Made by a program: the position numbers and the translations under genes
Part shown: one piece after another, positions 31,126 to 31,178 of the stretch
Layout: every line of letters begins with the position of its first letter
Numbering within the stretch: position 1 is the stretch's first letter
Source of the DNA: Octopus vulgaris
Taxonomy: Eukaryota
DNA: 64,000 nucleotides
Assembly (NCBI GenBank): GCA_951406725.2
Contig: OX597819.1
Coordinates: 93,496,001 to 93,560,000, forward strand
Direction: 5' to 3'
Notes under the pieces: generated by a model
Seen by the model: only the letters and a program-made list of their open reading frames with translations
The model's database searches: none
Told to the model about the DNA's origin: nothing

Positions 31126-31178
31126 AATCGTTACAGTTGAAAAGGTCTCAAAATGACCGAAACCGGTACTGAAAGATT
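31126..31178 (+). ncRNA. Minimal type I hammerhead ribozyme with U3-A8 compensatory core
   Basis: AAUC-G-UU-A-CAG / UUGAAAA / GGUC-UCAAAAU-GACC / GAAA / CCGG / UA / CUG-A-AA-GAUU; predicted GUA cleavage after 31168; inside a ~110 bp insert between (TA)n tracts. Confidence 0.75.

What the first reader, a model, noticed from the sequence alone, without database searches (positions are those of the whole stretch)
31126..31178. Structurally complete minimal hammerhead ribozyme with a U3-A8 core swap, inside a (TA)n tract
Seen: CAG-UUGAAAA-GGUC(UCAAAAU)GACC-GAAA-CCGG-UA-CUG, with stem I extendable by UU/AA and AAUC/GAUU, within a ~110 bp insert bounded by (TA)n. Known: the type I hammerhead order is stem I, CUGANGA, stem II, GAAA, stem III, UH, stem I. 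C3 and G8 form a Watson-Crick pair and U3-A8 swaps can stay active. Penelope-like retroelement hammerheads have very short palindromic stem III sequences (here ACCGGU) and cleave as dimers. Inference: both departures from CUGANGA fall on the paired 3/8 positions, which suggests selection for function; a plain CUGANGA motif search would miss it.
Basis: partly seen in the sequence, partly recalled or inferred. Interest (0 to 1): 0.82.

Follow-up and report, generated by a model that had tools for sequence, protein, structure and literature searches.

The report
Penelope-element hammerhead with U3-A8 core
The motif is a real hammerhead-shaped RNA element carried by a short stub of a young, very abundant Penelope-like jumping gene; it likely cuts itself only slowly and in pairs, and its swapped core pair is already in print, so it is a new example of a known kind.

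Summary
The hammerhead is there as described (31134-31171, cut site after A31168) and did not arise in 300 shuffles. It is not a stand-alone ribozyme. The 114-bp insert is the 5'-truncated 3' end of a young two-ORF Penelope-like retrotransposon (RT plus GIY-YIG, Neptune-type motifs, 4.4-kb unit, intact tandem copies) that inserts into (TA)n. U3-A8 is the family norm: 3,382 of 3,485 pattern matches. Core, helix I and ACCGGU are kept between two subfamilies whose flanks are about 70% alike, and the stem II closing pair changes G-C to A-U. U3-A8 is published for natural hammerheads (2011) and for Penelope elements (2014). Two points cut against fast cleavage. U3 can pair with A17, like the known C3-G17 trap. 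Copies also run across the cut site, with no pile-up of ends there. Cleavage is untested. Most likely it is a slow, dimer-dependent ribozyme of the element's tandem transcript, and this lone copy is an inert passenger. New member of a known kind; interest 0.25.

The parts
31113..31226 (+). 5'-truncated copy (extreme 3' end, pLTR) of a two-ORF Penelope-like retrotransposon
   Evidence: 100% identical over 114 bp to 40 of 40 scored genomic places, 809 candidates; 118/122 identical to the intact 4.4-kb unit over 31111-31232
31134..31136 (+). Helix I, 5' strand (CAG); pairs with CUG 31169-31171
   Evidence: sequence; same in subfamilies A and B and in family C
31137..31143 (+). Core box U3-U4-G5-A6-A7-A8-A9 (U3 = 31137, A8 = 31142)
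   Evidence: 3,382 U3/A8 matches against 53 with another base at 8 and 50 family matches with another base at 3
31144..31158 (+). Helix II GGUC/GACC with 7-nt loop; closing pair G10.1-C11.1, A-U in subfamily B
31159..31162 (+). Core box G12-A13-A14-A15.1
31162..31167 (+). Palindrome ACCGGU; predicted 6-bp intermolecular helix III in a dimer
   Evidence: cofold MFE of two copies forms it, P 0.92
31168..31169 (+). Predicted scissile bond after A17 (GUA triplet); A17 can pair with U3
   Evidence: position by hammerhead numbering; P(U3-A17) 0.84 in the dimer model; cleavage untested
31169..31174 (+). Helix I 3' strand CUG, then AA (31173-74) pairing with UU (31131-32) across an A.A mismatch
31220..31232 (+). 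3' junction at the first of two fixed end sites (...UUUUCAUAUAU merging into (TA)n); inferred start site of reverse transcription
   Evidence: 33 of 80 distinct fetched copies end here, 21 end about 35 nt further on (tail), 26 run on into ORF1 (sample not random)
31064..31112 (.). (TA)n target tract, left part; the tract resumes at about 31225-31242

Best explanation
The motif is the pLTR hammerhead of a young two-ORF Penelope-like retrotransposon, carried here by a 114-bp 5'-truncated copy in a (TA)n tract, and it likely cleaves slowly and only as a dimer. Shown: the element has a 4.42-kb unit with ORF1 and an RT + GIY-YIG ORF2, occurs as head-to-tail arrays with one hammerhead per unit and as inverted partial copies, and ends at two fixed AU-rich sites 58 and about 95 nt downstream of the cut site. 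Inferred: in a tandem transcript two hammerheads pair their ACCGGU palindromes into a 6-bp helix III, probably with help from the element's protein, and cut after A17 to release unit-length RNA that may be re-ligated. U3-A8 would keep the core pair, while a competing U3-A17 pair would keep the rate low. Inferred: the endonuclease nicks (TA)n and reverse transcription starts inside the RNA at one of the two AU-rich sites, on a template that is continuous across the cut site (uncut or re-ligated). In the window it stopped after about 114 nt, so this lone copy has no partner, no ORF and probably no function.
For: Family and architecture: RVT_1 E 3.3e-8 above cut-off; GIY-YIG E 0.0047 below cut-off; 3.3 units, four hammerheads 4,419-4,433 bp apart, 99.3-99.6% alike, both ORFs open in 2 of 3 full units. 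Fixation of U3-A8. Constraint between subfamilies: a B copy found by BLAST, not by the motif, matches A at 23 of 24 core/helix I/helix III columns against 146 of 207 flank columns, Fisher p 0.004; stem II closing pair G-C to A-U. C3-G8 occurs in the same CAG...GAAACCGGUACUG frame in family C and in two distant Penelope-like contigs. Dimer fold is the MFE, -25.1 kcal/mol. Literature: U3-A8 natural and active in vitro (PMC3088659); in Penelope min-HHRs, with low dimer-dependent activity measured for another min-HHR (PMC4209133); two internal RT starts, protein-assisted cleavage, uncut RNA as main template (PMC11167929).
Against: No cleavage assay and no usable RNA data. U3 and A17 are complementary; the model gives the pair P 0.84 in the dimer and 0.70 in the monomer, and the analogous C3-G17 pair strongly impairs minimal hammerheads (PMC3884650). 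Only 1 genomic copy begins at the cut site against 2 at a control site 7 nt upstream, and none of the 41 listed pLTR-ORF1 junction places begins there. Within the family there is no clear covariation: 2 of 29 C3 copies also have G8, but so do 2 of 9 G3 copies. Rfam score is far below threshold.
Confidence: 0.6

Rival explanations
1. The motif is kept for its fold but no longer cuts: U3-A17 locks the site, and the RNA serves as a dimerisation or protein-binding signal next to the reverse-transcription start sites.
For: P(U3-A17) 0.84; no genomic ends at the cut site; hammerhead mutants did not affect insertion in the anole element in vitro; Naiad elements spread without canonical hammerheads.
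Against: All catalytic residues and a Watson-Crick 3-8 pair are kept across two subfamilies. A U-A pair is weaker than C3-G17, and the folding model ignores core contacts. Re-ligation or use of uncut RNA also explains the lack of ends.
Confidence: 0.25
2. The motif is an efficient ribozyme in which helix I extension and loop I-loop II contacts hold U3 on A8, so it cuts fast as monomer or dimer and makes abundant circles.
For: Arrays of more than three units and partial tandems of variable length fit rolling-circle copying; tertiary contacts rescue G17 variants.
Against: Helix III in a monomer is 2 bp with a 2-nt loop; monomer MFE is not the hammerhead; the AAUC/GAUU extension is not conserved; tandem transcripts explain the arrays as well.
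Confidence: 0.12
3. The U3-A8 state is neutral decay of a dead motif that was amplified by a successful master element.
For: One master could fix any variant; single-position variants appear at about 1-1.5% without coupling.
Against: Both changes from CUGANGA fall on the 3-8 pair and both subfamilies keep them while flanks diverge by about 30%; stem II shows a two-sided change.
Confidence: 0.03

Closest known systems
Minimal hammerheads in pLTRs of metazoan Penelope-like elements, including the U3-A8 variant of Schistosoma mansoni Cercyon elements (Cervera and De la Pena 2014, PMC4209133)
   Same: Type I order, location in the pLTR, mostly single truncated copies, opposite-strand pairs 100-700 bp apart, U3-A8 core (about 1,300 hits there), palindromic helix III, predicted dimer dependence.
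   Different: Helix II is 4 bp with no extra base after A9 (there 7-8 bp with one); helix III has a CCGG insert, like the Drosophila virilis, rotifer and shrimp variants; copies are very uniform; H17 is A and complementary to U3 (H17 of the Schistosoma variant is in a figure that could not be seen).
Natural U3-A8 hammerheads (Perreault et al. 2011, PMC3088659)
   Same: Same covariation of the 3-8 core pair; the paper says such pairs were already shown active in vitro.
   Different: Here the pair sits in a minimal motif with no stable helix III and no evident tertiary contact.
Poseidon element of Anolis carolinensis (Frangieh et al. 2024, PMC11167929)
   Same: Two fixed 3' ends about 35 nt apart (tail), AT-rich targets, hammerhead upstream of the RT start sites, no ends at the cut site.
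   Different: That element has one ORF and a C3-G8 core and primes without target homology; here there are two ORFs, and both end sites contain (AU)n that matches the (TA)n target.
Neptune-clade Penelope-like elements (as summarised in Craig et al. 2021, PMC8557442)
   Same: C-terminal GIY-YIG with CCHH, CX2-5CxxC linker, ORF1 in a shifted frame, (TA)n bias, tandem and inverted copies.
   Different: Clade not placed by a tree with named references; Nematis also has a form of the linker.

Membership tests
PLE minimal hammerhead (type I) | Core boxes N3-UGAN-N8-A and GAAA...UH with a Watson-Crick 3-8 pair | tested here: met
   U3-A8, GUA triplet
PLE minimal hammerhead (type I) | Helix I open, helix II closed, helix III minimal and palindromic | tested here: met
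   CAG/CUG, GGUC/GACC, ACCGGU
PLE minimal hammerhead (type I) | Located in the pLTR of a Penelope-like element | tested here: met
   one per 4.42-kb unit, between ORF2 stop and ORF1 start
PLE minimal hammerhead (type I) | G10.1-C11.1 closing pair | tested here: met
   G-C in the window and subfamily A; A-U in subfamily B
PLE minimal hammerhead (type I) | Extra nucleotide between A9 and 10.1 (usual in the 2014 set, not required for a hammerhead) | tested here: not met
   helix II starts directly after A9 (feature)
PLE minimal hammerhead (type I) | Self-cleavage after H17, dimer-dependent | not testable with these tools
   only folding predictions
Rfam hammerhead clan CL00010 | Score at or above a family's gathering threshold | tested here: not met
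   HH9 22.9 bits against 52; no match at gathering in 5 loci, including those with canonical cores
EN+ Penelope-like element, Neptune type | RT followed by C-terminal GIY-YIG with CCHH | tested here: met
   Pfam RVT_1 and GIY-YIG (the latter below cut-off); LIY..CxxC..YIG with two downstream His
EN+ Penelope-like element, Neptune type | CX2-5CxxC linker between RT and EN | tested here: met
   C-x4-C-x2-C at about residues 651-659 of P0001 (definition)
EN+ Penelope-like element, Neptune type | Partial tandem or inverted pLTRs, 30-40 bp tail on one end, (TA)n target | tested here: met
EN+ Penelope-like element, Neptune type | RT groups with named Neptune references in a tree | not tested
   homologues found were unnamed or mis-binned; no named references in hand
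Non-LTR retrozyme | Short non-coding monomers in tandem, each with a type I hammerhead | tested here: not met
   the unit is 4.42 kb and coding; the window holds one truncated copy

The most novel reading that the evidence does not exclude
The U3-A8 swap, fixed together with A17, builds a self-brake: U3 pairs with A17 and holds the cut site shut until the element's protein or a partner RNA opens it. A co-resident 429-nt non-coding family with a canonical C3-G8 core and the very same ACCGGU helix III could pair with it, so parasite and autonomous element would form mixed ribozyme dimers that regulate each other's RNA processing.
Probability: 0.15. Interest if true: 0.6.

Novelty: new member of a known kind. 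Interest (0 to 1): 0.25.

Why it matters
As it stands it adds one more animal Penelope-like family with a U3-A8 hammerhead; the variant itself is in print. What the family offers is a test system. The role of hammerheads in Penelope-like elements is still open, and here there are intact young arrays, about 3,400 uniform copies, two mapped end sites, natural C3-G8 single copies, and a C3-G8 retrozyme-like family with the same dimer helix in one genome. If the U3-A17 brake is real, it would show how a retroelement tunes down its own ribozyme so that uncut RNA survives as template.

Tried and rejected
Expression: no RNA holder listed (14 holders are only guessed to be RNA); contigs laid cannot show ends or strand, and no pile-up of ends was listed. 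Metagenome pattern scan gave 2 matches, both inside a bacterial ORF without stem II, so chance. A loose search for other U3-A8 families was swamped by background (4,373 against 2,603 control). Within-family covariation at 3/8: not shown. The A-versus-B table is biased, because copies were picked by the motif and B copies by a non-U at position 3; (one BLAST-found copy) is the fair test. DNA transposon with terminal inverted repeats: rejected, since the inverted arms vary in length, one arm carries a tail, and the interior encodes RT + GIY-YIG. Homology between family A and family C outside the hammerhead: none (score 26, 621 of 1000 shuffles as good); no RT found beside the 25 family C loci except an unrelated insertion. 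One hand-written monomer structure was mis-indexed and is not used. Rfam miRNA hits near the site are microsatellite artefacts below threshold. The 2017 paper on dimeric hammerheads of Penelope-like elements was not held and is recalled only. Earlier notes on this genome or sequence: none.

Full report
Observation. The sequence holds the motif exactly as described: CAG 31134-36, UUGAAAA 31137-43, GGUC-UCAAAAU-GACC 31144-58, GAAA 31159-62, CCGG-U-A to 31168, CUG 31169-71, between (TA)n tracts. A descriptor allowing any Watson-Crick 3-8 pair finds no other hit in the window. A stricter one finds it once and in 0 of 300 shuffles (written after seeing the motif). Rfam gives Hammerhead_HH9 at 31123-31187 with 22.9 bits, under the gathering score of 52. 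The 116-nt monomer folds no better than shuffles.

What carries it. The window is G000:C6:93496001-93560000 in a 2.8-Gb assembly. The 114-bp insert is 100% identical to all 40 scored places of 809 candidates, many in opposite-strand pairs. Upstream of those copies lies more of one element, cut at variable points. Long copies encode an ORF1 of about 410 aa and an ORF2 of about 780 aa; ORF2 matches RVT_1 (E 3.3e-8) and weakly GIY-YIG (E 0.0047, below cut-off), with a C-x4-C-x2-C linker and a CCHH motif. On C9 an array of 3.3 units has four hammerheads 4,419-4,433 bp apart, 99.3-99.6% identity, and both ORFs open in 2 of 3 full units, so the family is young. The window insert matches this unit at 118 of 122 bases and nothing else in the window does. 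These are the features given for Neptune-type Penelope-like elements (PMC8557442, passages); I built no tree with named references. ORF2 has 498 homologues at E 1e-30 or better among 7,996 scored candidates; the best is 61% identical, and the few named ones among the 120 listed come from bivalve-symbiont records, probably host DNA (inference). That the host is a cephalopod is my guess from recalled repeats, not a tool result.

U3-A8 is the family state. The pattern with U3 and A8 matches 3,382 places, with 0 for the reversed control. With another base at 8 there are 53 (39 G, 9 T, 5 C). With another base at 3 there are 51, one of them from a different family. So 3,382 of 3,485 family matches are U3-A8; copies with other changes in the pattern are not counted. 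Two of 29 C3 copies have G8, but so do 2 of 9 G3 copies, so these look like independent decay in old copies, not covariation. The constraint shows between lineages. Subfamily B has AGUC-UCAAU-GACU, a two-sided change of the closing pair. One B copy found by BLAST matches A at 23 of 24 core, helix I and helix III columns against 146 of 207 flank columns (p 0.004). A separate family C has canonical C3-G8 in the same CAG...GAAACCGGUACUG frame, and two distant Penelope-like contigs have C3-G8 motifs (L141 read by eye, L142 by descriptor). In a run labelled with another organism code, one contig spans the motif with 4 differences, all outside the core (X18 record 26); the code may or may not be another species.

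How it likely works. Two copies fold as MFE into the dimeric hammerhead: helix II in each, a 6-bp ACCGGU helix III between them (P 0.92) and helix I in trans. A monomer cannot close helix III over 2 nt. Tandem arrays supply two or more hammerheads per transcript. Copies end at two fixed sites, 58 nt and about 95 nt past the cut site; of 80 distinct fetched copies 33 end at the first, 21 at the second and 26 continue into ORF1 (the sample is not random). Inverted pairs usually have one arm of each kind. This matches the two internal RT starts and the tail shown for the anole element (PMC11167929, parts 1-2 of 4). Both sites here contain (AU)n and merge into the (TA)n target, so priming by short base-pairing is plausible (inference). 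The window copy ends at the first site and was cut off after about 114 nt.

Results against easy cleavage. Every copy with a whole motif was copied across the scissile bond, so the template was uncut or re-ligated. Only 1 copy begins at the cut site against 2 at a control site 7 nt upstream, and none of the 41 listed pLTR-ORF1 junction places starts there. The anole study likewise found no reads ending at the site and no need for cleavage in vitro. In addition U3 is complementary to A17: the model gives this pair P 0.84 in the dimer and 0 in natural C3-G8 copies. The analogous C3-G17 pair is the proposed trap that impairs minimal hammerheads (PMC3884650, part 1 of 5). The model ignores core contacts, so this is a hypothesis.

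What is known. Natural U3-A8 covariation is described in PMC3088659 (passages). A U3-A8 min-hammerhead in Schistosoma Cercyon elements, about 1,300 hits, is in PMC4209133 (parts 1-2 of 4), with low activity of a dimeric min-hammerhead and the proposal of circular templates; the text read does not say that the U3-A8 form was assayed. Searches for hammerhead + Penelope-like + octopus, hammerhead + U3-A8, C3U + G8A and C3-G8 + G17 showed no report of this family or of a U3-A17 pair; figures and supplements were not seen, most subscription papers are not held, and Repbase was not searched. A 2026 preprint (10.64898/2026.07.22.740005; abstract and passages) ties retrozymes to Penelope-like elements. 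Earlier notes of this scan reach the same verdict for U3-A8 motifs in other genomes (unchecked, not counted as evidence).

Verdict. Observation confirmed; interpretation partly supported. It is a member of the Penelope minimal-hammerhead kind on every defining feature I could test except the optional extra base after A9; cleavage is untested. I put 0.95 on the identity, 0.6 on slow dimer-dependent cleavage in the parent element, and regard this lone copy as probably inert. New member of a known kind, interest 0.25.

Noticed in passing
L115-L139 (e.g. L125, L118); G000:C5:114462902-114463157: Family C: an abundant (1,945 candidates) non-coding element with a circularly permuted 429-nt monomer (one locus), canonical C3-G8 hammerhead with long helix II, the same CAG/CUG and ACCGGU-A as family A, inverted partial copies and (TA)n junctions. 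Looks like a retrozyme moved by a Penelope-like element.
   Followed up: partly
L098 about 6503-6563, minus strand (ORF1/ORF2 overlap): A U-UUU-UUA slippery heptamer in the ORF1 frame leads by -1 into ORF2, which in this copy has no AUG before its first conserved block. No stable hairpin follows. Frameshifted ORF1s are known in Penelope-like elements.
   Followed up: partly
L098+L099 (G000:C9:10671372-10685984): Head-to-tail array of 3.3 units, 99.3-99.6% alike, with intact ORFs: a candidate active source locus.
   Followed up: partly
window 31316-31425: Old repeat family (75-80% identity) starting with CUGA(U/C)GA...GAAA like a hammerhead core, but without consistent stems among 9 copies viewed; perhaps a decayed hammerhead-bearing element.
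   Followed up: partly
window 31253-31309: Fragment of another (TA)n-associated repeat that often occurs as short inverted pairs.
   Followed up: no
L013, L016, L019, L010, L020, L026 (about 168 nt upstream of the cut site): Several independent copies have their 5' truncation or inversion point at the same spot in the pLTR: a possible RT stall or transcript start.
   Followed up: no
L141:3660-3760; L142:38-90 and 3535-3620: Penelope-like elements filed in bacterial MAGs, probably eukaryotic DNA. Both have C3-G8 hammerheads; L141 has a CAUAUAUA motif about 55 nt downstream like end site 1 here, and L142 is a single-ORF 3.5-kb unit ending in (TA)n.
   Followed up: partly
L118:2607 (-), L120:2679 (-), L003:48-1276 (-): Other canonical minimal hammerheads with ACGU palindromes and a further Penelope-like RT about 50% identical to ORF2 lie in fetched flanks, so the genome hosts several such families.
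   Followed up: no
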